DNA from: an uncultured Mycoplasmatota bacterium
GTDB taxonomy: Bacteria > Bacillota_I > Bacilli_A > RF39 > UBA660
Reading direction: 5' to 3'
Length of the DNA stretch: 64,000 nucleotides
NCBI GenBank assembly: GCA_900549625.1
Contig: URPE01000002.1
Location: forward strand, 2,242-66,241
The translations under genes and the position numbers were made by a program. The notes below the pieces were generated by a model. The model ran no database searches and was not told the DNA's origin. It saw only the letters and a program-made list of their open reading frames with translations. The number at the start of each line of letters is the position of its first letter. Position 1 is the first letter of the stretch. Shown here piece by piece: positions 32,267-51,160 of this stretch.

Positions 32267-33898
32267 TCACTTATTAGCCAAAACTATTGCTAATATTACT
32301 CCAATCATAAGTGTAAATATTATAACAACAAAGCAATTAAAATAACCATTTACTGCTCTTTTCCTAGTTAAACCTTGATCTTTTTTATATGGTTCTAAAT
32401 TCCCATTTGAAACTCTATATTCATAATTATTAGATGCTAGTAATTCATTTAAATATTCCTCATTTAAAGACTTTTGTCCATCATCATTTATATAAAAATA
32501 CTTTTTATTATATATTTCAAGTAATTTTTTTAAACATTCATTTTCATTATCATAATCAGGTTCTCTACCATGCTGTTTAGTAAAAGAATCAATATAATGT
32601 CTTATCTCATTATCTATATCATTTCTAACAAAACCCAAAATATCTATAAAAGATTTATCACTACTATAATACTGAGCCACAGTACTTAGCAATTCGAAAT
32701 GCTTATCCATAGCAAATGGTTTATCTTTAATTTGCTTTATTTGCCAAATATACATTCTAAAAGCGTTTATAAAAGAAAGAAATTGAGCACTAAAAGTATA
32801 GTCTTTGATTATCTTAATTTCATTTCTAGATTCCAAATAATGAAGCAAATCTAGCGCTTTAAAAGACACCTGTTCAGTTGGCACTAGTGAGTATGAAGAA
32901 ATCCACTCACCATTAGGAGCCTTAGTACTTGGTTCTAAATACTCCACAAATTTATCTTCAGGCAATTTATATATAGATATATATTTAGAATCTAAAGTTT
33001 CATCTATTGTGCCTGGAAATATTTCTTTAATCGCATTTTTTTCTCTTGGAAATAAAGTAGATGAACGAAATGTAGCCATTTTAAAACAATCAACAGGATC
33101 TATTCCTCCATAAACATATTTTCCTTTTTGAGTACTTTCGTTTACCTCTAATTTTTCAATACAAGGATTTAAAGAAGCATGAAATATATTTTTTTCTCCA
33201 TTATGAAAAGCACTAATCCATTCATCTAATAGCTTATAATTATTTAAAATTATTTTCCCTTCTAACTCTTCTTTATTGTGGATCATAGCCAAATTATAAT
33301 CAGCTAAAAAAGCATTGCTAAAACTTAAAACAGTTTTTGCCTCTTTAATTCTAAGTTTATTAATGTCACATCCCCCAACTGGTGCTGGATAATTAATCCT
33401 ATTTCTATCAAGAGCATCAGCATCTTTCAAAATATCACTCATTTTTTGAACTTTCATTTTTTCTATATCAGTAATTTTTACGTTGGAAAAATCAATTTTA
33501 TTTTCTTCTAAAGCATGCTGCTTTATTAATATGGAAATAATAGTGGCCCTTTTATAATCCAAATCATCAACATGATTATCTAAAAATTGTTTTGCACCAA
33601 CAAATCCATGCGTTTGATTAGAGGCACCTAATGTTTTACCAATATCATGATACAAAGCTGCCGTCAAAAGTAATTCTAAATCAATATCTTCACTATTCAA
33701 CTTATTAGCAATCATGCAAATGTAAGCAAGTACTCTTTCTATATGTAGCAAATTATGTTGAAAATCCTTTGTAGACGTATATAGTCCTTCATTAATAGCC
33801 TTAGCAACAAGTACAGCAATTTTATTTTGATCATCTTTTGTTAAACCATATTTATTAAGTTGCTCCAGCGTAAAAAGATTAATATAACTTTTTTCCAT
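32267..33898 (-). CDS. HD-domain phosphohydrolase-superfamily protein with C-terminal membrane anchor
   Basis: 543 aa. N-terminal HD module (LLHIERV...LYHDIGK...THGF...KQHALE...LKDADALDRNR), ~330 aa unassigned, then a C-terminal TM FNCFVVIIFTLMIGVILAIVLA. Confidence 0.8.
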   Translation of the reverse strand: MEKSYINLFTLEQLNKYGLTKDDQNKIAVLVAKAINEGLYTSTKDFQHNLLHIERVLAYICMIANKLNSEDIDLELLLTAALYHDIGKTLGASNQTHGFVGAKQFLDNHVDDLDYKRATIISILIKQHALEENKIDFSNVKITDIEKMKVQKMSDILKDADALDRNRINYPAPVGGCDINKLRIKEAKTVLSFSNAFLADYNLAMIHNKEELEGKIILNNYKLLDEWISAFHNGEKNIFHASLNPCIEKLEVNESTQKGKYVYGGIDPVDCFKMATFRSSTLFPREKNAIKEIFPGTIDETLDSKYISIYKLPEDKFVEYLEPSTKAPNGEWISSYSLVPTEQVSFKALDLLHYLESRNEIKIIKDYTFSAQFLSFINAFRMYIWQIKQIKDKPFAMDKHFELLSTVAQYYSSDKSFIDILGFVRNDIDNEIRHYIDSFTKQHGREPDYDNENECLKKLLEIYNKKYFYINDDGQKSLNEEYLNELLASNNYEYRVSNGNLEPYKKDQGLTRKRAVNGYFNCFVVIIFTLMIGVILAIVLANK

Positions 33899-35720: not shown

Positions 35721-36758
35721 CTATGACTCTAAAAATTCAAAATTACACATTATCCTTTCTTTAACGGTAATTCTAGGCATCACCCCTATTTTACCCTGAT
35801 ACTCTATTTCAATTGGTTCTATCTGTACAACATTATTAACCCCTTCAAAAATAAACTCACCATACATACTAATTAATTCTTTATAATTATTAGTAATAAA
35901 ATAACTTATAGTATTATTATTAGAAGCATACTCTATAAAATCATCTATAAAAGGAATTTTAGGTATTTTATTTAAATTATCAAATATTAACACCAAACTA
36001 GTATCTTTTTCTTTTTTAGTCAAAACTTGTTTTAATAATACTAAACCTAAAGAACTATTTTTACCAGTCCCTGAAAAGAAAATAGCAGTTTTATCTCTTT
36101 TACATAAATCTATTTCATTAGTACTTACTAAATCTAACATAGCAGGTCTAAAAATATAACTACTTAAAGCTGACTTAAGTGTTGCAAATATTCCACTTCT
36201 TGTTTCTATTGGTGCAAAAATACTAGCAGAACCAAAACTATATATTGGGTCTATCACGTCTAATTTACTTAAATATTTTCTTAAATCTTCAATAAGTTTA
36301 TTTTGATCTTCATCAATTTTTCTTAAAAGATTAACTATACTATAAAAATTTATTTCTTCCTTCTTGCCTTCTTTAAATAACAAAAGAATTAAAGAACATA
36401 ATAAATCTCTAGCATTATTATCCCAAAAATCAGTTACATTATCACTAGTATTAACCATAGATACCCCAAGCTCTTGAATAAGCAATAAAGCCTTATCAAC
36501 ATTACCATTTTTATATAACGAATAAGGAATACTTAGTATATTAAAGCCATTAGAATTTTCTGGTTCATCTAGCCGTACCATTTTAATAGTATAATGAGAA
36601 TCCTTTAAATCATTATAAAAGTAATTATAATATTCTTCTTTATTATCCCAAATAAATAGCTTCTCACCATTACTTATCATTTCTTTAACCTGGTTAAACA
36701 TATAACCTCTTGTTTTACCACTATCAGGTTTGCCAATAATTAAATTTGTATTTTTCAT
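35721..36758 (-). CDS. Orphan VirD4/TraG-like (type IV coupling protein-like) P-loop NTPase, no TM segment
   Basis: Walker A IIGKPDSGKT. Central FWDNNARDLLCSLILLL block and C-terminal LVLIFDNLNKIPKIP...ELISMYG parallel T4CP conserved blocks (xxLDEFxxLGxIP...YG), but with DN in place of DE. Confidence 0.55.
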   Translation of the reverse strand: MKNTNLIIGKPDSGKTRGYMFNQVKEMISNGEKLFIWDNKEEYYNYFYNDLKDSHYTIKMVRLDEPENSNGFNILSIPYSLYKNGNVDKALLLIQELGVSMVNTSDNVTDFWDNNARDLLCSLILLLFKEGKKEEINFYSIVNLLRKIDEDQNKLIEDLRKYLSKLDVIDPIYSFGSASIFAPIETRSGIFATLKSALSSYIFRPAMLDLVSTNEIDLCKRDKTAIFFSGTGKNSSLGLVLLKQVLTKKEKDTSLVLIFDNLNKIPKIPFIDDFIEYASNNNTISYFITNNYKELISMYGEFIFEGVNNVVQIEPIEIEYQGKIGVMPRITVKERIMCNFEFLES

Positions 36759-36764
36759 TTATAA

Positions 36765-37142
36765 TCAATCCTTCCTTCTTAAGAGTACATCTTCTACTCT
36801 TTCTTTATAAATCATACCATGAGCTATTCTTGTTCTAAGTTCATCAAGTTTTTTAATTCTCTCATTTAATAGTTTTTGTTCTTGAAACACTTTTTCTTTT
36901 TGTCTCAAAAAATATTCATCATTCCAATTATTCCAGTTATCTCTAATTTCTAAAAGTGAAAACCCAGCTTCCTTTAGTTCCATAATTAGATATATATCAT
37001 CAAGCTGTTCTTCTGTGTAATATCTATATCCACTAAAAAGATCTATTTCACTTGGTTTAAACAAGTCAATATCATCATAATAACGTAAGGTTTTAACTGG
37101 TATATTACATAGTTTAGAAAACTCTCCTATCTTTAATTTCAC
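36765..37142 (-). CDS. MerR-family transcriptional regulator
   Basis: MKLKIGEFSKLCNIPVKTLRYYDDIDLFKPSEIDLFSGYRYYTEEQL (MerR HTH plus wing), then a coiled-coil dimerisation helix. GTG start after GGTGAGG. Confidence 0.9.
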   Translation of the reverse strand: MKLKIGEFSKLCNIPVKTLRYYDDIDLFKPSEIDLFSGYRYYTEEQLDDIYLIMELKEAGFSLLEIRDNWNNWNDEYFLRQKEKVFQEQKLLNERIKKLDELRTRIAHGMIYKERVEDVLLRRKD

Positions 37143-37155
37143 TTACCTCACCAAC

Positions 37156-37431
37156 CTAATACCCCATCATTTTTCCAACAAAATAAAGAATACATAACAA
37201 TATAAATACTATCACATACATAGTAATTGGTATAGTATCTTGACTCTTTTTTTTCCCTAAATCGTAAAGTTTTTGCTTTTCATACCAATTTCTACTATAA
37301 CTTTCTGAAAATTTTTCACAACACCCACTACAAGGAAAAACATAGCATTTACATTTCTTACACTTATAAATACCATCACGCTTCTTATCAAAAGTATTTA
37401 TATATTCACAATCCGCACAATATTTTGCCAT
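37156..37431 (-). CDS. Cys-rich zinc-ribbon-like protein with C-terminal TM anchor
   Basis: MAKYCADCEY...YKCKKCKCYVFPCSGCCEKF (9 Cys in the first 40 aa), then TM MYVIVFILLCILYFVG. First gene of the MerR operon. Confidence 0.6.
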   Translation of the reverse strand: MAKYCADCEYINTFDKKRDGIYKCKKCKCYVFPCSGCCEKFSESYSRNWYEKQKLYDLGKKKSQDTIPITMYVIVFILLCILYFVGKMMGY

Positions 37432-37453
37432 ATAACTCACCACCTGTAATTAA

Positions 37454-37495
37454 ATTAAATCATTACAGTTAACTGGAGAGTCAATTACTATTTTA
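37454..37495 (-). promoter_or_regulatory. MerR-type promoter (19-nt spacer with dyad), copy 1 of a 25-bp repeat
   Basis: Minus-sense TAAAATAGTAATTGACTCTCCAGTT (37471-37495). TTGACT at 37479-37484, a 19-nt spacer containing the palindrome CAGTTAACTG, and TTTAAT at 37454-37459. ATG lies 23 nt downstream. Confidence 0.6.
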
Positions 37496-37784
37496 TTTGA
37501 GTTTCGTTTTTTTCAATAAAATTAATTCTATTTTTAAATTTTTATTAATTAATACTCAAGTGAAAATTTAAATTGACCAAAATTAGAAAATATAGTAGTA
37601 TAATGGCACTGAACGAGTAAATGGCCCAAAATAGTGTATTTGTTTGACTGGTACACTATTAAAAAATGGTAATTTTAATATTTCATTCCACACCAAAAAG
37701 TGTCGAACACAATAACGTGAATGACTAAATGCACCATTTAAGATGTAATATTAGAAATAATTAAATGTGCCATTTTACCCATTC

Positions 37785-37829
37785 GATAATAATAAATAAC
37801 GGAGCCTAGGCGTAGATTATTTATTATTA
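37785..37829. repeat. Perfect 14-bp inverted repeat with 17-nt spacer
   Basis: ATAATAATAAATAA (37785-37798) and TTATTTATTATTAT (37816-37829). The spacer contains the palindrome GCCTAGGC. Lies ~80 nt beyond the 3' end of the IS30 remnant. Confidence 0.6.
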
Positions 37830-37911
37830 TCTTTATTGAATAAACTAGGTTTAAGTATAATATATTTTGCGGGGATAAAATAAAAACCTAGTTTTTTTAT
37901 GTTTTCTTCTC

Positions 37912-38450
37912 CTATTTTTCTTTCATTAAATTATATGGTGTATTACCATTTAATTTTTCTCTTTTAATATTGTTAATATAATTCATCATTAAATAAATAT
38001 CTTCTTTAGAATATCTATCTAAATCTGTACCTTGTTCAATAAATCTTCTTATGTATTCATGTGTCACCTCAATACCTCCTTTTTGATCACTTCTTCTAGA
38101 ATCACAAAAGAACACCTTAATTTTAATAACATCAGGACCATTATCTTCGATTAAGTATGGCCTTTTAAACTCTTTACCATTGTCAGTTAATATCACTGGA
38201 AATTTTTTATAAAATGATTCATATCCAAGTATTGCTCTAATTCCGTTAATTTTGGCAGTAACTTCAGATATTGTTTGACTTTCTAATTTACAGGCTATCA
38301 TAAAGTTAAAGGGTATAAAGTTTAAAGTGAGTAAAGAACAGTGTCCTTTAATACCTTCAACAGTGTCCATTTCTACATAATAGTTGATATTGTTAGCTGC
38401 TTTATAGTTAAGAAAGTCTTTATAAGTGCGGTTAATTTTACACTCATTCT
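37912..38450 (-). mobile_element. IS30-family transposase gene remnant (5'-truncated)
   Basis: The 152-aa ORF carries the DDE-core C-terminal part (MDTVEG...ILTDNGKEF...QKGGIEVTHEYIRRF...LNGNTP). The frame stays open ~27 codons upstream to a TGA. The N-terminal HTH half is absent and no clear terminal IRs were found. Confidence 0.7.
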
Positions 38451-38579
38451 GTTTTCATTTCATATGTATTTTTAGTAAAATTATTTATATAAACACCTCC
38501 GATTATTTTTATTTAGCACTAATTTTAGACTACAATTAAATTGTACTAAATTTTGGACTTGTTTACTTCATTTTTAAGA

Positions 38580-38620
38580 CAAAAAGATGAAGAATTTATG
38601 ATTTTCTTCATCTTTTTTAG
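38580..38620. terminator. Bidirectional-looking intrinsic terminator
   Basis: An 11-bp perfect stem AAGATGAAGAA (38584-38594) / TTCTTCATCTT (38604-38614), flanked by an A-run on one side and a T-run on the other. Sits just 3' of gene 38649-39284. Confidence 0.75.
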
Positions 38621-38648
38621 TTATCAACAAATTTTAACATAACTCAAA

Positions 38649-39284
38649 CTATTTTAATATTTCTTCTAGACTATGACGTTTATTATCTTTATTTTTAGCC
38701 ATTTGTATTAAGGCTTTGTGTATCTTAAATTCATTTTCGGTTTCATCATCAAAAATGCCATCAGATAAATCTAAGAATTCTAAAGCATCTTCAAAATGTC
38801 CGTCCATTCTAAGCAAATCACATATAATTAATATTTCATCGGGCACTCTTTTTAAAACATTATTAAATAAAATTTGGAGTCCGACTTGTCTATAATACCT
38901 TTCATCTTCTTCATTATCACAAACCCAAGAAGCATTAATAAATGTCTTATAAGCCAAGAAATATTGTTGATTTTCTTCATACTGACTAGCAACACCAACT
39001 ATTTTTCTAAGTCTATCATTTTTAATTTTCTGCATTTCTTCAAATATTTTACTTTTTTGCCAATCTTTAAGATTATTACAATACTTATGTACAATAGGTT
39101 CGGTAATATCAAAGCTTACATAATGACAATGTGGACACTCCTTAATATTAAAACCAATTATCGAATCATTTTTAGGTTTACCATCCATATCTCCATACCC
39201 AAAATTATGCCAAGATAAAACATCATTATACTTTGCTTCTTTATTACAAACAGCACATTTATAAATATTTTCAATAATGTTCAT
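38649..39284 (-). CDS. Zinc-ribbon plus helical (TPR-like) protein, possibly DUF2225-like
   Basis: True start is likely ATG 39282-39284 (MNIIENIYKCAVCNKE...) after GGGAGG. CxxC...CPHCHY zinc ribbon, followed by a helical C-terminal half. The track ORF extends over its own promoter. Confidence 0.6.
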   Translation of the reverse strand: MNIIENIYKCAVCNKEAKYNDVLSWHNFGYGDMDGKPKNDSIIGFNIKECPHCHYVSFDITEPIVHKYCNNLKDWQKSKIFEEMQKIKNDRLRKIVGVASQYEENQQYFLAYKTFINASWVCDNEEDERYYRQVGLQILFNNVLKRVPDEILIICDLLRMDGHFEDALEFLDLSDGIFDDETENEFKIHKALIQMAKNKDNKRHSLEEILK

Positions 39285-39319
39285 ATATATCAAACCTCCC
39301 AAAAAACATTTACAAAAAA

Positions 39320-39360
39320 ATCTTATCATACAATCAACTGGAGAGTCAATTACTATTTTA
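39320..39360 (-). promoter_or_regulatory. Copy 2 of the 25-bp MerR-type promoter core
   Basis: Identical 25-mer at 39336-39360. TTGACT at 39344-39349, 18-nt spacer, TAAGAT at 39320-39325, 36 nt upstream of ATG 39284. Confidence 0.55.
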
Positions 39361-39548
39361 ATATTTTTTTCCAAATAATATTACAACAAAAAAGTAACAA
39401 GATTACCTTGCTACTCCTCTACTAGGATCTTCAAAAACAGGAGTTCCATTATTATAATAATTAACTCTATTAGGTGCCATTTGTCTAAGTGCTTCTTGTA
39501 ATTCAGCAGGTGCATTAGCAATTTTTACGTTCAATTTATTTCACGTAT

Positions 39549-42500
39549 TCACATATTTCTTCCATGATTAGATAATTCAAAATATTCATTTGAATCATTT
39601 TGAGCTAATGTAGACTTTAAAACCTTTTGTTCCTGTATATAACGACAACTTAACTCAAATTGTTGTTTATCATAACTCTTGTAAGATTCGTAAAGTTCTT
39701 TAATTATTGGTATTAATTCCTTTGAAAAATCAAATCTTAACATTTGCTTATTAAGTTTTGAATCCGAATTTAAAAATCTAACCCGATCTAAAGCATCAGA
39801 ATCTTTCAAAATATTAGCAATTTTTTTAACATAATCTCTTTGGTTACGTTCAATTTCATATTTGTCACAAATTTTTTCAAATCTAAAATCATCATCAATA
39901 TCGGCATGATACTCAACAACAACCTGCATAAGCTTAATATCATTCTTACTAAAACCTTTTTGAAATAAATAAGGCTCCATTTTTTTTGCACTTTCTAAAC
40001 CATGTCTGTTATCATAATAATCACTTTTTCTACCACAATCGTGATATTTTGCGCATTCAGTTAAAAGACTAATAGCGTGCTCATCAATTGAACCATTATC
40101 TAATTTTAACTCTTGCCTTCCTAACAATTGTGACAAAAACATAACTCTTTCTATATGTTCAATACTATGATTTTTATCAGCATTCAAATATAATTTATTT
40201 GTCATAATATCATCTATTTGCTTACTTAAAAAATCGCAATCAATCTCAGAAAAAATTTGAGTCAACGTGGAATCTGAATTTTCAAATTGATTAACCTTAA
40301 TAATATTCATCAATTTTGGAGTATTGTTTCTACATAAGTTAACATTAATATATTGCATCAATTGAGATATATACTTATCAATTGAAATATCCATATAATT
40401 TGACCGTTCCGTAGTTTCCATTGCATTGCTAAATTTGTTATTTTCCTTTTCTAAAATACTAATCAATCGATTACTATTTTTAAAATATTCTACAATGTCA
40501 TTAGTTTCTTGATAATGTGCTTGTATTTCAGATATAATTTGATCTAATAATATTTCAATTTTTGTTGTAGGAAAATATTTATCTACCCAATCATTATTTG
40601 TCCATTTTAAACCACTTCGATTGTTTTCATGAGACAACAATATTTGTTCTAATAAAGTAAGTTTCATTTCCATATCTTTACATCTATTAAATTCCTGTAT
40701 TTTTTTATCAATTTTTTTAACCTCATGTTGAATTATCTTTTCTTTATTCAAAAATACAATTGGAATATTCATCTCTGAAGAGCATTTTATAGAATTCTGT
40801 TTGATTTCATCATCCATATCGCTATAAATTATTACATAACTTGGTTGAATATTTTGAAACATTTGATTTTTTTTATCATTTCGTAATTCATTTCTTTCTA
40901 AAACAAGTTCATTATGTGAATGTCTAGTATTATCAATTATATCCTGAGCACTCATAAAAACTAATGGCCGTCCCTCTTGAATGTCATACTCATCATTAGC
41001 AGAATAAATATCATATGGTGCAATTTTAGTTATTGATTTAGAATCCCAACCATCAAATCCAAATAAAACATCGTTTACCATGGCTATACTTAAATTATCG
41101 TTTGAAATTAATGAACAACAAATTCCATGATTAGATTTTCTACTACTATTATTCCATGAATCAAAGTAGTTATTGTTTATTAACTCCATTTTACCATAAG
41201 CAGCAGTACTATGAACAAGCATTTTAAATTCATACCCAGGTTCAAAAACTGATACTTTTTTTATAAACTTATTACCATTTTCTTCTATAACAAATTCCAT
41301 TTCTTTAGATTGATTAAAAATATATTCATCATTTTCATCTTTTATTTTATCAGTAACTTTATAAACACTATCAGATATTTCCTTACTAAACATTTGTCTA
41401 ATAGATTGCTCAAAAAAGACAGTTTCTTCAAAAGATAAAACCCTATTTTCTGATTCAAAGTATTGTTCAGCAATAACATGAATTTTTTGAATATCAAGAA
41501 TTCTTTTAATATTTTCAATATATTTTACTTGTGATTCATATTCATGCTTATCCGCAAATTTTTCAATAGAATTACCAAACATTCGCACTATTTCATGTGC
41601 CTCTTGTATATTTATATTAAAATATTTATTTAGGTAAGCATTTTTTGCATCATACAAATTTTTCTTAACAACGGCCTTCCTAAAACATTCATCACACAAT
41701 ATCATTCTATTATTTTGATAATTATTTAAATCATCAATTGTATTAATATCAGGTAAAATATTTAAAGAAAAATCTATTTCATCTTTTTCAACGTCAAACA
41801 TACTACCAGAAATACCATTATAATAAAGTGAAAAATCCCTCATACCAATTTCTGTTATTGTTTTCCAATTATTGTCAGTAAATTCCTTGGTATCAAAATT
41901 CTTATTATGTATTATTTTAGATATTTTTTTTATTTTTTTTGGATTTTTACTATAATATGAATTGTCTCTACTTATTTCAATAAGTCTTGTCATAAAAAAT
42001 ATAATATCTAAACCAGGAACATTTAGATTTTCAACACACCTAATCATGTTTTTTAAATACTCAGAAGAATTCTCATCAGCTAAAGCATAAGCCAATGACT
42101 TTGCTTCTATTGGATATTTACTCATTCTTTCAATAAAATCAAAACCCAAATCTAATATATTGTCTTGAAACAAATCAAATACTATAGTCCTAACAAGATA
42201 TGGATTTTTAGAATATAACTTTTTCAAGTATTCATATTTGTCATACTTAAAAGGGCCTTTATATCCTCTAAAATTATTTGGACAATTAAAAGTTTCATTC
42301 CATTCACCTATTAACCTGTAAAAAAAACGTTTGTCGAACAAAATATCATTTGCAGTATCTATGTCCAAATCAGGCTCAAACATTAGTTCCTGAATAATTT
42401 TCTTGTCAATGTAATTCATAAATTTTTCATTCTTTACAATTGCTACTTTATCTATAAGAGGCATTGACTCAGAAGAAAATGCTCCATTAAAGCCAAAGAG

Positions 42501-43658
42501 ATTATTAACATTAAAATCAACATTCCCACTAAAAATCAAATCAACAATTTTTTTGTCATTTAACAATTCAAAACGTTGCTCGCTTGTAAGGTATTCTTGG
42601 CCAACAATTATTGCCATATCAAATCCAGATAATTTTGAAAATAAAAGTTCATCGGACAATAAACTTTTTTTAGTTTTAAAATCATAATTTTTTGATATCA
42701 TAAAATTTGCAAGAATACTACCACTTATTCTAACTTTAACCCTATCATCTAAAAGAATTGACATTAAATCTGCTGACGACAATTTACTAGATTTTAAAAA
42801 ATATCCAATATCTATATTTTGAGCAAATTTATCAATAGCAATGAAATTTTGAAAATCATTGTAATTTTCACATAATTCTCCTAATAGTGCAGAAAAATCG
42901 AATTTTAGCAGAGCATCAAATATTTCGGGTCTAATTAGTAAATTTAATTTCTTACTTTTAGAAAAATTAGATTTTGATATAATATATCTAATACTTGAGG
43001 AAGAAATATATGGAAGTAACTTTTGATTAGATAAAATATAATCTTTAAATTCTTGTGAATAGTTTTTTGAATTTAAAATTGCCACTATAAAAGAACCTAA
43101 TTCACCAAAATCAGTAATAATATTAGCTCTATTATCTCTATCCCACTTATTAAAATTACGACAATAGTTTTCTAGAAAATCTACAACTGCTTTTTCATCA
43201 TTAGTTTTTTCTATTAATTGTGTTATAGACTTTTGTGGAAAAGATAAACAATTAATAAAATCTTGTGATGCTAACAAATTATTACATATTTTACAATTTG
43301 GGTCTTCTATTCGTTGTAAAAAAGATATTATTATTTCATCCAGTACAACAGATTTTCCAATGTTGTTTTTTTCAATAAATTCTTGTGATATTTTTTTTAA
43401 TATATCTATCATATCTTTTTGATTTATACCTGACAATAATTTTTGCATCGTTTGTTCTATAATAGATTCAAAATGAGTATTAATTTGTGCTATTTCTGAT
43501 TTAGATTCCTCCGAAAGTTCATTATTACTTTTTTCCTCAAGTTCCATCAGTCTATTTTGCATTTCTAAAATTTCTTCAGAATTTTCAAGTTCATCTTTTG
43601 CTTTCTTCCAATCTGAAATCAACTTTTTTAACATGTTTATTGCTTCTTGTTCTGACAT
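39549..43658 (-). CDS. 1369-aa protein: unassigned N-terminal ~1140 aa plus C-terminal HD hydrolase module
   Basis: GGAGG RBS before ATG 43656-43658. N-terminal charged coiled-coil-like segment. Internal repeats (IISKSNFSKSKKLNLL..EIFDALLKFDFSAL / MISKNYDFKTKKSLLSDELLFSKLSGFDMAI). C-terminal HSIEHIERV...KYHDCGR...RHGLESA...EYHADI...LKDSDALDRVR. Confidence 0.8.
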   Translation of the reverse strand: MSEQEAINMLKKLISDWKKAKDELENSEEILEMQNRLMELEEKSNNELSEESKSEIAQINTHFESIIEQTMQKLLSGINQKDMIDILKKISQEFIEKNNIGKSVVLDEIIISFLQRIEDPNCKICNNLLASQDFINCLSFPQKSITQLIEKTNDEKAVVDFLENYCRNFNKWDRDNRANIITDFGELGSFIVAILNSKNYSQEFKDYILSNQKLLPYISSSSIRYIISKSNFSKSKKLNLLIRPEIFDALLKFDFSALLGELCENYNDFQNFIAIDKFAQNIDIGYFLKSSKLSSADLMSILLDDRVKVRISGSILANFMISKNYDFKTKKSLLSDELLFSKLSGFDMAIIVGQEYLTSEQRFELLNDKKIVDLIFSGNVDFNVNNLFGFNGAFSSESMPLIDKVAIVKNEKFMNYIDKKIIQELMFEPDLDIDTANDILFDKRFFYRLIGEWNETFNCPNNFRGYKGPFKYDKYEYLKKLYSKNPYLVRTIVFDLFQDNILDLGFDFIERMSKYPIEAKSLAYALADENSSEYLKNMIRCVENLNVPGLDIIFFMTRLIEISRDNSYYSKNPKKIKKISKIIHNKNFDTKEFTDNNWKTITEIGMRDFSLYYNGISGSMFDVEKDEIDFSLNILPDINTIDDLNNYQNNRMILCDECFRKAVVKKNLYDAKNAYLNKYFNINIQEAHEIVRMFGNSIEKFADKHEYESQVKYIENIKRILDIQKIHVIAEQYFESENRVLSFEETVFFEQSIRQMFSKEISDSVYKVTDKIKDENDEYIFNQSKEMEFVIEENGNKFIKKVSVFEPGYEFKMLVHSTAAYGKMELINNNYFDSWNNSSRKSNHGICCSLISNDNLSIAMVNDVLFGFDGWDSKSITKIAPYDIYSANDEYDIQEGRPLVFMSAQDIIDNTRHSHNELVLERNELRNDKKNQMFQNIQPSYVIIYSDMDDEIKQNSIKCSSEMNIPIVFLNKEKIIQHEVKKIDKKIQEFNRCKDMEMKLTLLEQILLSHENNRSGLKWTNNDWVDKYFPTTKIEILLDQIISEIQAHYQETNDIVEYFKNSNRLISILEKENNKFSNAMETTERSNYMDISIDKYISQLMQYINVNLCRNNTPKLMNIIKVNQFENSDSTLTQIFSEIDCDFLSKQIDDIMTNKLYLNADKNHSIEHIERVMFLSQLLGRQELKLDNGSIDEHAISLLTECAKYHDCGRKSDYYDNRHGLESAKKMEPYLFQKGFSKNDIKLMQVVVEYHADIDDDFRFEKICDKYEIERNQRDYVKKIANILKDSDALDRVRFLNSDSKLNKQMLRFDFSKELIPIIKELYESYKSYDKQQFELSCRYIQEQKVLKSTLAQNDSNEYFELSNHGRNM

Positions 43659-43742
43659 AATTACCTCCATAATATTAACTAATCATAAAATATAAATAAA
43701 AAATCACTTATAAACGATTTAATTTTAAAAAGCAATTTTAAT

Positions 43743-44492
43743 TTAAACATTATTTAAACTATTTTTGTGCAAATGATATTTTAACTCAAATTCTCTTTCT
43801 TCAAATTTAAACAATTTATTAGAAATAAAATATGGCAATTCATCTAATAATTTATCTATATTACCATTGATTATTAAATCATGATTATTTATGCATACCA
43901 AATGAATTATTTTTAATATATTTATATTTCCAACAGAATTTGGTAAATAAAACAAACCAAATTTACTTGCAAACAATCTTGCTTCCATCTCAATTATTAT
44001 ATCATTAAGTTTAAATCCAATATTTTCTGTATATTTAACATAATCATCAGAATAATATAATTTTCTTGTACCTTTTAAACAAATAATTTTTTTAATGTAT
44101 TGTCTTAAAAATTCATATTTTATATAACTCTTAAAATCAATGTTATACTTTTTTATGATTTGCGCTATTTCTTCATTTGAAAAATATGAATAGTAACCAT
44201 TCTTTAATTTACTATCAATATCGACCAAATTTATGGGATTTACATTTCTTATTTTATCATACTTTGAAATCCCGTTTGGCAATGATAAAAAAAACTTCTG
44301 ACTAGCAGCATCATAGAAAATAAACCCTTCAGTAAAATTTTCAGAAATTTCAAAATCTCTATAAAAATTAACATTTAATTTATCATTATCAATTATGCCA
44401 GCAAAATTAAAAGATATATCATCTTTGATTTTCAAATAAAATTGATAAATTATATTTAATAAACTATTATAACTATTAATCGTATCAATCAT
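43743..44492 (-). CDS. Hypothetical 249-aa protein
   Basis: Long ORF co-oriented with, and 84 nt upstream of, the 1369-aa gene. No motif recognised. Confidence 0.6.
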   Translation of the reverse strand: MIDTINSYNSLLNIIYQFYLKIKDDISFNFAGIIDNDKLNVNFYRDFEISENFTEGFIFYDAASQKFFLSLPNGISKYDKIRNVNPINLVDIDSKLKNGYYSYFSNEEIAQIIKKYNIDFKSYIKYEFLRQYIKKIICLKGTRKLYYSDDYVKYTENIGFKLNDIIIEMEARLFASKFGLFYLPNSVGNINILKIIHLVCINNHDLIINGNIDKLLDELPYFISNKLFKFEEREFELKYHLHKNSLNNV

Positions 44493-44496
44493 AAAA

Positions 44497-44592
44497 TCAC
44501 CAATCCAACTGTTCTATAAAAGCTTTTCTAAACAAATAATCAGCCTGCCCCAACATTATATTATTTTTAATATTACTAACAATCCCAGCCAT
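44497..44592 (-). CDS. Possible 31-codon leader ORF
   Basis: Own translation MAGIVSNIKNNIMLGQADYLFRKAFIEQLDW. GAGG lies 7 nt upstream of the ATG. The stop is 4 nt before the 249-aa ORF start. Confidence 0.3.
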   Translation of the reverse strand: MAGIVSNIKNNIMLGQADYLFRKAFIEQLDW

Positions 44593-44675
44593 AACGTTAC
44601 CTCACTCTAAATATAGAATAACATAAAATGTTAAAAATGAAACAACAAACACTTTATATTTACGTAAAAAAAACT

Positions 44676-45482
44676 CTATTTATCTAGAGCTTCATACACA
44701 AATTTCATTATATCTTCCAAAGTATCTGCCGCAATTAAAAACCTACTATTATGACAAAATCTTAGTCCTTCTGGTAATTCATGTGTCCATTCTTCCGGAA
44801 ACGGTTTCTTTAATTCTACCGTATCTGGACTCTTACTTACCCCTTGTGCTGAATAACCACCTCTTTTAGAGGGATAAACAACATAAATAGTTTCCTTAAA
44901 AGGCAAAAAATCTTTAAAATAAGCATGTTTATCTAATACTAATACTCGTTTATCTAAAGAAGCATTATATTTTTCTATAACATATTTCTCTTCCTCCAAA
45001 TGTCTTTCTTCTTTCTTAATTAAATTTTCTAGTATTCTTTTAGCAAAAGAAACACATTCCATAAACTCTTTATCGCCAGTTTCATTATCTTCTAAAGGAT
45101 TAAAAGCAGAAAGGGCATAACATAAAGAATCATAAACACCAGTATTATCAGATAAATCTAAATGTTTAATAAATGCATTATCTATTTTTTTTACAATCTT
45201 CTCATCATACAAATAAGATGCAAAGTGACACCACAACTTTCCAAACGCAGCATAAGGCGTTTTATCACTCCTACATTCATTAGAAACCATATGATGATCA
45301 AACTCACCCATACCAATATCGAACATTATATAATCAGTTACTTTAGGGTTTTCATTAGTTCTAATAATTTCTATATCAGGTACAATAAGTTTTAAAAATG
45401 CTGCCCCAAAAATATCATCAGCATGAAAAGTACCCGTATGTGTAACCGCATATTTACATTTTTTTAATTCATCTAATGTCAT
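44676..45482 (-). CDS. MYG1-family (UPF0160) metal-dependent hydrolase/exonuclease-like protein
   Basis: N-terminal VTHTGTFHADDIFGAAFL and ...FDIGMGEFDHH motifs are typical of the MYG1 family. Confidence 0.7.
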   Translation of the reverse strand: MTLDELKKCKYAVTHTGTFHADDIFGAAFLKLIVPDIEIIRTNENPKVTDYIMFDIGMGEFDHHMVSNECRSDKTPYAAFGKLWCHFASYLYDEKIVKKIDNAFIKHLDLSDNTGVYDSLCYALSAFNPLEDNETGDKEFMECVSFAKRILENLIKKEERHLEEEKYVIEKYNASLDKRVLVLDKHAYFKDFLPFKETIYVVYPSKRGGYSAQGVSKSPDTVELKKPFPEEWTHELPEGLRFCHNSRFLIAADTLEDIMKFVYEALDK

Positions 45483-45490
45483 TAACCCTC

Positions 45491-45928
45491 CTATTTATGA
45501 TAAGTCTCATGATTGATTATCTTAAAAGACCTATATATCTGTTCTAGTAAAATAGCTCTAAAAAGGCCATGAGGAAAAGTAAATTCTGAAAATGACAAAG
45601 CCATATTACTTCTTTTTTTTATATCTTCATGTAAACCTAATGAACTACCAATCACAAAAGTAATTACCGGATAATGTACAAAAGTATTTTCTAATTTACT
45701 TGCTAGTTCTTCACTCTTTAATGCTTTACCCAATATTTCTAATGTAATAACATAATCTCTTGTATCAATATGTTTCAATAATAAATCTCTTTCTAAGTTT
45801 AAAGAATTACTATCATTAACTTCAATTATTTCTAACTTATGATACTTATTAATTCTTTTTTGATAATCACTTATCATCTCTTTTAAATAATTTTCTTTAA
45901 TTTTACCTACACATAATATCTTTATCAT
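45491..45928 (-). CDS. rlmH: 23S rRNA (pseudouridine1915-N3)-methyltransferase RlmH
   Basis: MIKILCVGKIKENYLKEMISDYQKRI...; SPOUT C-terminus (FSEFTFPHGLFRAILLEQIYRS). Confidence 0.9.
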   Translation of the reverse strand: MIKILCVGKIKENYLKEMISDYQKRINKYHKLEIIEVNDSNSLNLERDLLLKHIDTRDYVITLEILGKALKSEELASKLENTFVHYPVITFVIGSSLGLHEDIKKRSNMALSFSEFTFPHGLFRAILLEQIYRSFKIINHETYHK

Positions 45929-46685
45929 CACATACCCTCGTTACTTCATTTTGTTTTGCACAACAAACAAAAGGCTTTTCTATTTCATATTCATCTAATG
46001 TATCACTTAAAGTACTAAGTGCTTTTTCTTCTGTATTATTTTGATGTGATAAGTGCATAAGTATTATTTTTTTAGTATTCTCGCCAACTAATTTAGAAAG
46101 ATAAAAACTAGAATCTTTATTTGACAAATGTCCAAGTGTTCCAAGAACTCTTTGCTTTAGCCATTTAGGATAAGGACCATTCATAAGCATTTCTATATCA
46201 TGATTGCTTTCCATTAGATAATATTCTTTATTTTTTAAAAGTTCAAAATACTTACGATTCAAATAACCAGTATCAGTTAAATATACCAAAGAATTAGCCC
46301 CATGTACTAATACAAAGTTTCTAGAATCACTCGCATCATGACTTCCATGAATATTTAAAATATGAATATCTCCTATATAAAAATCATCTTCATAAACTAT
46401 GACATTATCATAATCTTTTAAATAATCTAAATCATAAAACATTTTCTCCGTTACATAAACTTTAGGGTGATTTTTTTTCAAAAAAATTTTTAGAGCACTA
46501 ACATGATCATCATGTGTATGACTAATTATAATTGCGTCAATTAAACTAGCATCTTCCCCTATTTCCATTAATTTTTCTTTAATATACTTAGCATTTTTAC
46601 CAATATCAAGTAATATTCTTTGTCCCCCAGAGGAAAAGAAAGTGGAATTTCCTTCGCTTCCACTTGCTAAAACAACCACTTTCAT
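45903..46685 (-). CDS. MBL-fold hydrolase, YycJ/WalJ-like
   Basis: SGSEGNS...ISHTHDDHV motifs. ATGA start/stop overlap with the upstream M23 gene. Lies adjacent to rlmH, as at the Bacillus yycJ locus. Confidence 0.8.
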   Translation of the reverse strand: MKVVVLASGSEGNSTFFSSGGQRILLDIGKNAKYIKEKLMEIGEDASLIDAIIISHTHDDHVSALKIFLKKNHPKVYVTEKMFYDLDYLKDYDNVIVYEDDFYIGDIHILNIHGSHDASDSRNFVLVHGANSLVYLTDTGYLNRKYFELLKNKEYYLMESNHDIEMLMNGPYPKWLKQRVLGTLGHLSNKDSSFYLSKLVGENTKKIILMHLSHQNNTEEKALSTLSDTLDEYEIEKPFVCCAKQNEVTRVCDDKDIMCR

Positions 46686-50257: not shown

Positions 50258-51160
50258 ATGATAAAAGAATATACTAAGTTAGATAATTGGTTTACTGCTA
50301 AGCGTGACCGCGTGTTTAAAGCTGTTTTTGTAAATGACAAAGATAAAAGACTACTTGAATGTATTTTAAAGGAAACTTTAAATAAGTCAGTTAATATTGT
50401 TAAATTTCATATTACTGAACTTGCTGTTAAAACCATTAGTGAACGAGTTAAAATGTTAGACGTTTTAATTGAAATAGATAATAACAAATTTATTTTATGT
50501 GAAATTAATACCTCTTTTAGCACTGTCATTAGAGAACGTAATTTAATGTTTCTAGAAGCATTTTCGTCTCAGAGAGTTAAACGTGGCGAAAAATATAGAA
50601 AGATAAACGAAATTTATTTAATTAACTATAATTTTATTGCCGACTTAGGTGGACCAATTATTAGACATTTCACTTATCGTGATGAAAATGGCAAAAAATA
50701 TTCTAATTCGAGAATGATCATCAACGTCAATATGGACAAATTGCTTAAAAATTATTATAATGATGGTGGAAAGGATGCGTACAAACACTTAGCTATGCTT
50801 GATATGGCTCAAAAGAGTTTACATGATTTAGCTCAAAATGATGAGATAGCTAGTATGTACTACAATAAACTTATGGAGCTTAATACCGATCAAGAATTTG
50901 TTCAATTATTATCAAATGATGATGAATACGAATTATATGTCGAATCTGAAATTAGTGAAGCCCGTGAAGATGCTCGCAAAGAAGGCGTCAAAGAAGGAAT
51001 TGATATTGGCGTTGCACGTGGTAAAACACAGGGTTCAAAAGAATCTAAGTTAGAGATCGCGAATGCTATGCTTAGTAATCACGAAGACTTAGAAAAAATA
51101 ATGACTTATACTAATCTTACCAAGGATGAAATACTAAACCTTAAAAATACTAACAACTAA
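50258..51160 (+). CDS. Rpn-family recombination-promoting nuclease / PD-(D/E)XK putative transposase
   Basis: N-terminal DRVFKAVF...MLDVLIE...ILCEINT (PD-(D/E)XK-like core) and a helical C-terminal tail (EAREDARKEGVKEGIDIG...) typical of this family. Confidence 0.7.
   Translation: MIKEYTKLDNWFTAKRDRVFKAVFVNDKDKRLLECILKETLNKSVNIVKFHITELAVKTISERVKMLDVLIEIDNNKFILCEINTSFSTVIRERNLMFLEAFSSQRVKRGEKYRKINEIYLINYNFIADLGGPIIRHFTYRDENGKKYSNSRMIINVNMDKLLKNYYNDGGKDAYKHLAMLDMAQKSLHDLAQNDEIASMYYNKLMELNTDQEFVQLLSNDDEYELYVESEISEAREDARKEGVKEGIDIGVARGKTQGSKESKLEIANAMLSNHEDLEKIMTYTNLTKDEILNLKNTNN

What the first reader, a model, noticed from the sequence alone, without database searches (positions are those of the whole stretch)
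39549..44592. Orphan operon: 31-codon ORF, 249-aa protein and 1369-aa protein ending in an HD hydrolase module (best candidate for an undescribed system)
Seen in the sequence:
- On the minus strand a 31-codon ORF (44497-44592, GAGG 7 nt before the ATG) stops 4 nt before a 249-aa ORF (43743-44492).
- After an 84-nt AT-rich gap comes a 1369-aa ORF (39549-43658, GGAGG RBS).
- I cannot assign the 249-aa protein or the first ~1140 residues of the large protein to any family.
- The large protein starts with a charged coiled-coil-like segment.
- It then has recognisable internal repeats: IISKSNFSKSKKLNLLIRPEIFDALLKFDFSAL versus MISKNYDFKTKKSLLSDELLFSKLSGFDMAI.
- Around aa 820-960 there is a compact block (LVHSTAAYGK..SNHGICCSLISNDNLSIA..NELVLER..PSYVIIYSD..NIPIVFLN) that looks like a globular, possibly catalytic, domain.
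- Only the last ~220 aa are assignable, to the HD metal-dependent phosphohydrolase signature (H..HIERV, YHDCGR, HG, YHAD, LKDSDALDR).

Context: the operon lies in a decayed accessory stretch containing an IS30 remnant, pseudogenes and a T4CP-like orphan.

Inference: this is a multi-gene module whose effector is an HD hydrolase or nuclease fused to a very large sensor or scaffold. That is the kind of architecture seen in defence or conflict systems, but a function cannot be read from the sequence.
Basis: partly seen in the sequence, partly recalled or inferred. Interest (0 to 1): 0.7.

Follow-up and report, generated by a model that had tools for sequence, protein, structure and literature searches.

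The report
Uncharted giant enzyme and its partner
Two real, co-inherited genes of an uncultured gut bacterium encode a 249-residue adaptor-like protein and a 1369-residue cytoplasmic protein. Only the large protein's last domain (an HD phosphohydrolase) is recognisable; its central 360-residue domain defines a large undescribed family, and no evidence ties the pair to anti-phage defence.

Summary
The coordinates and sequence details of the finding are correct.

- **Gene count.** The operon has two genes, not three. The 31-codon ORF is cut by a stop in the closest relative and is absent from all other orthologous loci.
- **The pair.** The 249-aa and 1369-aa genes are under purifying selection (dN/dS 0.14 and 0.23). 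They are adjacent in every orthologous locus that could be judged (19), while their flanking genes differ.
- **HD module.** It is real, with an intact H..HD..H..H..D..D signature, but it is accessory. Only 38 of 176 family members carry it, and it has decayed independently in a few of them.
- **Core domain.** The constant element is a 360-aa domain (aa 640-1000) found in at least 1015 protein clusters, all from uncultured, AT-rich gut Bacillota.
  - It has no hit in Pfam, NCBIfam, PHROGs, PADLOC or PDB sequences.
  - A confident model (pLDDT 92) has no Foldseek match in PDB or BFVD.
- **Partner.** Its model is also confident (pLDDT 91.5) and also unmatched. In several lineages the partner carries a C-terminal membrane anchor.
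- **Context.** Neighbours are housekeeping genes. No relatives were found in phage or plasmid collections.

My best reading, at low confidence, is a lineage-specific cellular enzyme complex. The defence reading is not excluded, but nothing found here supports it.

The parts
44497..44592 (-). 31-codon ORF. Probably not a gene; it is part of the 5' leader of the two-gene operon.
   Evidence: It is present with an RBS. In the 95%-identical locus L013 it carries substitutions and a stop after 26 codons. No counterpart lies upstream of the partner gene in L001, L004 or L009. It has no family hit.
43743..44492 (-). Partner protein, 249 aa. It is a soluble version of a protein that is tail-anchored in the membrane in other lineages, and its fold has no known analogue.
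   Evidence: It lies directly upstream of the large gene in every informative orthologous locus. dN/dS is 0.14 against L013. The AlphaFold model has pLDDT 91.5 and pTM 0.90, and the best Foldseek PDB match has E 0.73. There are no Pfam, NCBIfam, PADLOC or PDB sequence hits. Orthologues in L016-18, L052-55 and L058-63 end in a transmembrane helix.
41742..43658 (-). Large protein aa 1-639: a charged N-terminal segment, then a region with weak internal repeats. This is the most variable part.
   Evidence: There are no family hits. The repeats are supported at z=4.8 and by profile hits. dN is highest at aa 151-450. No hydrophobic segment was found; the maximum Kyte-Doolittle value over 19 residues is 1.19. 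Its helical character is inferred from the sequence and was not modelled.
40659..41741 (-). Large protein aa 640-1000: the conserved core domain, a helical subdomain followed by an alpha/beta subdomain. It is the defining element of an undescribed family and has enzyme-like invariant polar residues.
   Evidence: At least 1015 cluster representatives match at E<=1e-3 and 453 at E<=1e-30. Across 169 sequences, W835, H844, G845, C847, G867, F868, D883, T911, R912, N916, E917, R922 and P939 are at least 90% conserved. The model has pLDDT 92 and pTM 0.89. Foldseek finds no match in PDB (best E 1.3) or BFVD (best E 0.11). There are no Pfam or PDB sequence hits.
40239..40658 (-). Large protein aa 1001-1140: the tail that follows the core. 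Most family members end here, about 110 aa after the core.
   Evidence: The distribution of tail lengths is. E1072 and K1075 are invariant and the 'ENN.SG' motif is shared. Its helical character is inferred from the sequence and was not modelled.
39552..40238 (-). Large protein aa 1141-1369: an HD-superfamily metal-dependent phosphohydrolase domain (Pfam match at aa 1166-1292) plus a C-terminal tail.
   Evidence: Pfam HD scores E 0.024-0.026 (15 bits, full-length profile) for this protein. It matches 7 of 11 orthologues, with a best E of 5.5e-5. A profile of this domain hits the window's own Pfam-HD protein (32270-33898) at E 9e-13. H1168, H1206, D1207, H1219, H1251, D1286, D1288 and D1291 are all present.

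Best explanation
This is a vertically inherited two-gene operon of an uncultured, low-GC gut Bacilli lineage. I read it as a lineage-specific cellular enzyme complex, not an anti-phage island gene.

**Shown**
- The 249-aa gene and the 1369-aa gene are always adjacent and are under purifying selection.
- The large protein is cytoplasmic. It has a variable N-terminal region with weak repeats, a conserved 360-aa core, a tail of about 130 aa and an intact HD phosphohydrolase.
- The core, not the HD, is the invariant part of the family.
- The partner is tail-anchored in the membrane in several lineages.

**Inferred**
- The partner binds the N-terminal scaffold. Where it keeps its anchor, it holds the enzyme at the cytoplasmic face of the membrane.
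- The core carries out the primary reaction on a phosphate-bearing substrate (a nucleotide, nucleic-acid end or lipid-linked compound), using its invariant Asp, Glu, Arg, Asn, His and Cys residues.
- The HD module hydrolyses a phospho-ester of that substrate or product. This would resemble the way HD domains accompany synthetase or transferase domains in RelA/SpoT, GlnD and Cas10.
- The HD is dispensable, because it has been lost or inactivated repeatedly.
For: - **Pair conservation.** The pair is conserved in 8 of 8 informative ortholog loci (window, L001, L004, L009, L015-L018) and 11 of 11 informative metagenome loci, with differing flanks.
- **Selection.** dN/dS is 0.23 for the large gene and 0.14 for the partner.
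- **Rate of divergence.** Between the window and the L004 genome, the large protein is 45% identical and the partner 37%. DnaB (partial), L9 and WhiA are 41%, 45% and 42%.
- **Constrained length.** Orthologues are 1329-1372 aa and 45-95% identical over their full length.
- **Cytoplasmic location.** Only 3 of 176 family members have any hydrophobic segment.
- **Neighbours.** They are housekeeping genes. One member sits inside rbfA-truB-X-tlyA-fmt with overlapping or near-abutting gene boundaries.
- **Mobile elements.** There are no PADLOC hits and no phage or plasmid relatives.
- **HD status.** The signature is intact in most carriers but degenerate in P0012, P0019, P0037 and in the first copy of the double-HD members. 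It is present in only 38 of 176 members.
- **Alternative C-terminus.** P0015 carries a weakly PI-kinase-like domain in place of the HD, which is also phosphate chemistry (weak).
- **Tail anchors.**
Against: - No activity, ligand or interaction has been shown.
- The fold of the core matches nothing, so calling it an enzyme rests only on its invariant polar residues.
- Several features are also seen in conflict systems:
  - there are paralogues within one genome (L014 and L019; L026 and L029; L047 and L050);
  - the C-terminal module varies;
  - a small ORF often overlaps the stop codon.
- In the window, the pair abuts remnants of an IS30 element and an integrative conjugative element.
- The window's partner lacks the membrane anchor, so tethering cannot apply in this organism.
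- Prevalence of the pair across the lineage's genomes was not measured, so 'core gene' is not proven.
Confidence: 0.4

Rival explanations
1. Defence or conflict system. The large protein senses an invader through its N-terminal repeats and releases an HD nuclease or nucleotide-depleting activity. The partner acts as regulator or co-sensor.
For: - The layout is a large repeat region plus an HD domain.
- The family has expanded, with paralogues in one genome.
- C-terminal modules vary.
- The N-terminal region evolves fastest.
- Flanks vary around a conserved pair.
- In the window the pair lies next to mobile-element remnants.
Against: - No protein of the locus hits any PADLOC model.
- Pfam finds no NTPase or other domain typical of defence sensors.
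- The HD is absent from most family members and dead in some orthologues that still keep the partner.
- Neighbours are housekeeping genes, not defence genes.
- Divergence tracks that of housekeeping proteins.
- There are no phage or plasmid copies.
- PADLOC-DB dates from 2023, so newer systems were not covered.
Confidence: 0.2
2. Non-catalytic scaffold or cytoskeleton-like protein. The core domain is a binding or oligomerisation module, the partner is a membrane receptor, and the HD is a recruited accessory enzyme.
For: - The protein is very large and rich in weak repeats, with no recognisable catalytic fold in its first 1140 residues.
- The partner is tail-anchored in many lineages.
- Orthologue length is tightly conserved.
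Against: - The best-conserved core residues are polar or charged: H844, C847, D883, R912, N916, E917 and R922, at 90-99% across 169 sequences that are often only about 25-30% identical. That pattern fits an active or ligand-binding site.
- The core is fused to phosphate-handling domains.
Confidence: 0.15
3. Polymorphic-toxin-like effector. It would have a variable C-terminal toxin (HD, kinase-like or none) and a small downstream immunity protein, and would be delivered to competitors.
For: - The C-terminal module varies.
- Many family loci have a 40-75 aa ORF that overlaps or directly follows the stop codon.
Against: - There is no signal peptide, LXG/WXG, RHS or other trafficking domain.
- The N-terminus is the variable part and the centre is the conserved part, the reverse of polymorphic toxins.
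- The HD region evolves at the same rate as the rest of the protein or more slowly.
- The window, L013 and L001 have no downstream small ORF.
Confidence: 0.07

Closest known systems
HD-superfamily metal-dependent phosphohydrolases (Pfam PF01966); by motif the YpgQ/YedJ-like 'H..H..RV ... HD ... D.D.LD' type (that subtype is from my own recollection and was not tested)
   Same: The C-terminal ~200 aa carry the ordered H, HD, H, H and D..D residues. They match the full length of the Pfam HD profile, and a profile of the domain matches a Pfam-HD protein in the same window at E 9e-13.
   Different: The window's protein scores below Pfam's gathering threshold (15 bits against 22). A profile of the domain finds no HD protein among PDB sequences. 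The domain is fused to 1140 residues that have no family. Its substrate is unknown.
Multidomain enzymes that pair an HD hydrolase with a synthetase or transferase domain: RelA/SpoT, GlnD, Cas10 (own knowledge, offered as an analogy)
   Same: An HD domain is fused to a second, larger conserved domain. The HD decays to a pseudo-enzyme in some members, as it does in some RelA-type proteins.
   Different: The second domain here has no detectable similarity to nucleotidyltransferase, palm or synthetase folds. This is an analogy for how the protein may work, not a claim of membership.
Known anti-phage systems with HD nuclease or large sensor proteins (Cas3, Avs/STAND and others in PADLOC-DB v2.0.0)
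   Same: A large protein with a repeat region plus an HD module.
   Different: There is no hit to any PADLOC model. Pfam finds no P-loop/STAND or helicase domain in the large protein. No cas genes were seen among the gene calls of the flanks examined. The context is not a defence island.
Novel gene families exclusive to uncultivated taxa (FESNov catalogue, PMC10849945)
   Same: The family is found only in metagenome-assembled genomes, is under purifying selection and has no match in reference databases.
   Different: I did not check whether this particular family is in that catalogue.

Membership tests
HD superfamily (PF01966) | Ordered metal-binding and catalytic residues H ... HD ... (H) ... 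D | tested here: met
   H1168, H1206-D1207, H1219, H1251 and D1286/D1288/D1291 are present. The same pattern ('HRHDHH.DDD') is seen in most HD-bearing relatives.
HD superfamily (PF01966) | Score above Pfam's gathering threshold (22 bits) | tested here: not met
   The window's protein scores 15.2-15.4 bits, E 0.024-0.026, although the match spans profile positions 2-115 of 116. Seven of 11 orthologues match at E<=1, with a best E of 5.5e-5. Indirect support: a profile of the domain hits a Pfam-HD protein at E 9e-13.
HD superfamily (PF01966) | All-helical HD fold | not tested
Known anti-phage defence systems (PADLOC-DB v2.0.0) | Match of any component to a system model | tested here: not met
   There were no hits for the 31-aa, 249-aa and 1369-aa products at E<=1.
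Known anti-phage defence systems | Location in defence islands or mobile elements, with patchy distribution | tested here: inconclusive
   Neighbours in other genomes are housekeeping genes, and there are no phage or plasmid homologues. However, the window's copy abuts IS30 and ICE remnants, and presence or absence across close genomes was not measured.
Polymorphic toxin systems | N-terminal secretion or trafficking domain | tested here: not met
   There are no Pfam hits. No hydrophobic N-terminal segment was found, and 173 of 176 family members lack any TM-like segment.
Polymorphic toxin systems | Immunity gene directly downstream of a variable C-terminal toxin | tested here: inconclusive
   A small downstream ORF is present in many family loci but absent in the window, L013 and L001.
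STAND/Avs-type sensors | P-loop NTPase domain | tested here: not met
   No NTPase family was detected by Pfam or NCBIfam in any segment.
Core-domain family (undescribed; defined here by alignments A3 and A6) | A 360-aa domain with W835, H844-G845, C847, G867-F868, D883, T911-R912, N916-E917, R922 and P939 | tested here: met
   The window's protein carries all of them. The family holds at least 1015 cluster representatives.

The most novel reading that the evidence does not exclude
The 360-aa core is a new catalytic fold. It would define a large family of giant cytoplasmic enzymes confined to uncultured gut Bacillota. In this clade a dedicated adaptor, ancestrally tail-anchored in the membrane, recruits the enzyme, and an HD phosphohydrolase is coupled to it. 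Together they would form a previously unknown pathway, for example in nucleotide signalling or envelope-precursor metabolism, or else a new class of defence system.
Probability: 0.3. Interest if true: 0.75.

Novelty: categorically new. Interest (0 to 1): 0.55.

Why it matters
If the core domain is a new enzyme fold, it is a common one. It occurs in at least 1015 clusters at 50% identity, often with several copies per genome, in bacteria that are frequent in human and animal gut metagenomes. None of these bacteria has been cultured.

The confident models of the core and the partner give concrete residues for experiments: D883, E917, R922, H844 and C847 in the core, and H1206/D1207 in the HD domain. 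They also suggest a testable interaction between the partner and the N-terminal scaffold.

For annotation, three points follow:
- The HD label alone would misname the protein.
- The 31-codon ORF should not be called a gene.
- The pair should not be listed as a defence system on present evidence.

Novel families from uncultivated taxa number in the hundreds of thousands (PMC10849945). The value here therefore lies in the family's size, its modelled but unmatched folds and the conserved partner, not in its being unknown.

Tried and rejected
**Searches that found nothing**
- Family searches on the three products and on five segments of the large protein: Pfam, NCBIfam, PADLOC and PHROGs. Only the weak HD hit appeared.
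- PDB sequence searches with single sequences and with profiles of the HD region, the core and the partner. Nothing meaningful was found.
- Pfam on nine diverse family members and on 30 core domains. No consistent signal appeared.
- Foldseek of the core against PDB and BFVD, and of the partner against PDB. No match reached E<0.1. The weak zincin-like hits for the partner (selecase, PprI, FtsH; probability at most 0.41) are rejected as unsupported, because the partner has no HExxH motif.
- Source names for family members. None carries an informative name; the only two named are 'hypothetical protein'.
- Phage and plasmid collections and an IMG/VR pattern scan. No relatives were found.
- Rfam on 37000-46000. 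No RNA family was found.
- Promoter scan. It was uninformative in this AT-rich DNA: 48 sites found against 50 expected.
- A partner domain fused inside other family members. None was found.

**Ideas considered and dropped**
- I weighed H-Y-E or R-S-E ADP-ribosyltransferase, PD-(D/E)xK, caspase-like, deaminase and JAMM readings of the core motifs. I dropped them because motif order or spacing does not fit, and Foldseek found no such fold.
- Alternative genetic code 4 is rejected. The large gene ends in TGA, at the same position where the orthologues end.

It was rerun after an exact look-up gave those proteins ids.


Full report
**1. Observation**

- The 31-codon ORF (44497-44592) has GAGG 7 nt before its ATG. 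Its TGA stop lies 4 nt before the ATG of the 249-aa ORF (43743-44492).
- An 84-nt gap follows. The 1369-aa ORF then starts at 43658 behind GGAGG.
- The mechanically longest ORF starts at 43670, but all orthologues begin MSE/MSD, so 43658 is the start.
- The large gene ends in TGA, at the same position where its orthologues end. The organism therefore uses the standard bacterial code.
- The window has about 28% G+C.
- It is ordinary chromosome: a ribosomal-protein operon at 1-20 kb, then whiA, ftsX/pcsB-like, UDG, remnants of a coupling protein and an IS30 transposase, the pair, MYG1, rlmH, an MBL-fold protein, an M23 peptidase, dnaB, rplI and addAB-like genes.

**2. Two genes, not three**

- In the closest relative (L013; flanking genes 96-100% identical), the 31-codon frame carries substitutions and a stop after 26 codons.
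- In three other orthologous loci (L001, L004, L009) no such ORF exists. There the partner gene is preceded by a TGATATAAT extended -10 box 35-50 nt upstream.
- I therefore treat 44497-44592 as leader sequence.
- The two larger genes are under purifying selection against L013: dN/dS 0.23 for the large gene and 0.14 for the partner. Neighbouring genes range from 0.01 to 0.18. Neither gene is decayed.

**3. The pair is a conserved unit**

- A word-indexed search found only 15 relatives of the large protein. Twelve are full-length at 45-95% identity and 1329-1372 aa long.
- The partner is fast-evolving at the sequence level. The word search found only two hits. A profile finds it directly upstream of the large gene in all eight informative ortholog loci (the window, L001, L004, L009 and L015-L018), and the close relative L013 has the same arrangement.
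- The same holds in all eleven informative metagenome contigs retrieved with the partner as bait.
  - The one apparent exception, L053, is a chimeric contig. Its large gene breaks off after about 505 codons into foreign GC-rich DNA.
- The genes flanking the pair differ between species.
- Between the window and the genome of L004, the large protein is 45% identical and the partner 37%. That is the same range as DnaB (41%, partial), L9 (45%) and WhiA (42%). This fits vertical descent at an ordinary rate.

**4. The HD domain is real but accessory**

- On its own, the C-terminal 250 aa matches Pfam HD over the whole profile, but only at 15 bits (E 0.026), below the 22-bit threshold.
- Seven of 11 orthologues match, with a best E of 5.5e-5.
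- A profile of this region hits the window's own 543-aa Pfam-HD protein (32267-33898) at E 9e-13.
- The residues H1168, H1206-D1207, H1219, H1251, D1286, D1288 and D1291 are all present.
- Across HD-bearing relatives the signature is nearly always intact. It is degenerate in P0012 (which still keeps the partner and the core), in P0019, in P0037, and in the first copy of proteins that carry two HD domains.
- Only 38 of 176 family proteins examined carry the HD tail. Most end about 110 aa after the core.
- One member (P0015) instead has a C-terminus with a faint resemblance to a PI-kinase-like family, TIGR03843, at E 0.085.

**5. The core domain defines a large undescribed family**

- The invariant columns shared with the distant relatives fall mainly in aa 800-980.
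- A profile of aa 640-1000, searched exhaustively against 1.84 billion cluster representatives, found 1015 proteins at E<=1e-3 and 453 at E<=1e-30. These proteins are about 170-3700 aa long, and the whole 360-aa profile is usually matched.
- None of nine diverse members has a Pfam domain. None of the large-protein family members looked up carries a name in any source. All are from metagenomes.
- In GTDB species representatives, the 37 loci found belong to uncultured Bacilli, 'Tenericutes', 'Mollicutes', Erysipelotrichaceae, Candidatus Faecimonas and Candidatus Coprovivens. A few MAGs labelled Clostridia, Lachnospiraceae, Roseburia or Muribaculaceae also carry it. Some genomes carry two copies.
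- Across 169 full-length domains, F811, Y821, W835, H844, G845, C847, I851, G867, F868, D883, T911, R912, N916, E917, R922 and P939 are at least 90% conserved. That is a pattern of polar residues typical of an active or ligand-binding site.
- An AlphaFold2 model built on 30 diverse sequences is confident: pLDDT 92, pTM 0.89. It shows an eight-helix subdomain followed by an alpha/beta subdomain.
- Foldseek finds nothing in the PDB (best E 1.3, TM<0.15) or in BFVD (best E 0.11).
- Profile searches of PDB sequences, and Pfam scans of all 30 members, give no consistent signal.
- Within the limits of these tools, the fold has no known analogue.

**6. The partner**

- A model built on 14 sequences is also confident: pLDDT 91.5, pTM 0.90.
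- It has no significant PDB match (best E 0.73). The scattered low-probability hits to small zinc peptidases are not supported by any HExxH motif.
- In two separate clades (L016-18 and L058-63; L052-55), the partner carries a C-terminal extension. It ends in a hydrophobic helix followed by basic residues, which makes it a tail anchor.
- The window's partner and those of L001, L004, L009 and L015 lack this anchor.

**7. Context and mobility**

- Family proteins are cytoplasmic. Only 3 of 176 have any strongly hydrophobic segment.
- Their neighbours include trmB, ligA, pcrA, FemAB, HSP90, leuS, typA and nusB.
- One member sits inside rbfA-truB-X-tlyA-fmt with overlapping or near-abutting gene boundaries.
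- No protein of the locus matches a PADLOC model.
- The core has no relative in INPHARED phages, PLSDB plasmids or an IMG/VR pattern scan.
- Many family loci have a small charged ORF (40-75 aa) at or overlapping the stop codon. The window does not.

**8. Interpretation**

  - this is a real multi-gene module;
  - its C-terminus is an HD domain;
  - the block at aa 820-960 is a globular, probably catalytic domain;
  - nothing else can be assigned to a family.
- The evidence does not support a third gene, the HD as the central effector, or a defence-island setting.
- My preferred reading (confidence about 0.4) is a lineage-specific cellular enzyme complex.
  - The partner acts as an adaptor, and as a membrane tether where it keeps its anchor.
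  - The core is the primary catalytic unit, acting on a phosphate-bearing substrate.
  - The HD is a dispensable accessory hydrolase.
- Only the anatomy, conservation, selection and context are shown. The interaction, the chemistry and the localisation are inferred.
- A defence or conflict role (about 0.2) remains possible, because of the paralogy, the variable C-terminal modules and the fast-evolving N-terminal repeats.
- A purely structural role (about 0.15) and a polymorphic-toxin-like role (about 0.07) are less likely.

**9. Novelty and scoring**

- Apart from the HD domain, no component matches any described family or solved fold with the tools available. I therefore rate the distance from known systems as categorically new.
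- Interest is moderate at 0.55.
  - In its favour: the family is large, gut-associated and confidently modelled, and the conserved partner makes it experimentally approachable.
  - Against it: unknown families from uncultivated taxa are very numerous (PMC10849945), and no function has been established here.

Noticed in passing
L004 13987-14175; L007 6583-6768; L009 5644-5847; L011 4227-4388; also L015, L030, L032-L037, L039, L040, L043, L045, L048: A small charged ORF (40-75 aa) starts within a few tens of nt of the stop codon of the core-family gene, often overlapping it, in many loci. The L004, L009 and L011 versions align with each other. It is absent downstream of the window's gene and in L013 and L001.
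   Followed up: partly
window 37464-37495 and 39329-39360: A 32-nt direct repeat, 94% identical, brackets the IS30 transposase remnant (37912-38370) and the unassigned 241-aa ORF (38649-39374), immediately downstream of the large gene. It may mark the ends of an inserted element.
   Followed up: no
window 32267-33898 (minus strand): A 543-aa protein has an N-terminal Pfam HD domain (E 1e-9) and a C-terminal two-thirds with no assignment. Its HD is the closest annotated relative found here of the large protein's HD domain (profile E 9e-13). It has no PDB sequence match.
   Followed up: partly
L008 4655-8428 (protein P0015): A distant family member lacks the HD and the partner. It has a C-terminus faintly like the PI-kinase-related SCO1664 family (E 0.085). 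It sits inside an rbfA-truB-X-tlyA-fmt gene string whose gene boundaries overlap or nearly abut.
   Followed up: partly
L016 5138-6082, L017 5141-6085, L018 4378-5322, L052-L055, L058-L063: Partner orthologues of 314-324 aa end in a linker helix plus a hydrophobic helix followed by basic residues, which is a tail anchor. The window's 249-aa partner lacks this.
   Followed up: yes
L036, L043, P0153, P0155: Family members with two tandem HD-like domains: the first copy has lost the catalytic residues and the second is intact.
   Followed up: partly
L053 6939-8486 onward: A chimeric metagenome contig. The large gene is homologous for about 505 codons and then switches abruptly to GC-rich DNA that does not match the rest of the gene.
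   Followed up: yes
window 35721-37443 (minus strand): Remnants of an integrative or conjugative element: a truncated type IV coupling protein (345 aa against a 468-position profile), and a 125-aa protein that matches PADLOC mad1 (E 1e-10) and carries MerR Pfam domains in L013's gene calls. The same remnants are conserved in L013.
   Followed up: partly
window 38649-39374 and L011 9192-9932: The unassigned 241-aa ORF just downstream of the large gene has a homologue about 5 kb from the large gene, on the opposite strand, in another species' locus. It was not seen in the other orthologous loci.
   Followed up: no
window 50258-51160 (plus strand): A PD-(D/E)XK family transposase-like gene (PDDEXK_2, E 3e-13) lies on the opposite strand to its neighbours, near rplI/dnaB.
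   Followed up: no
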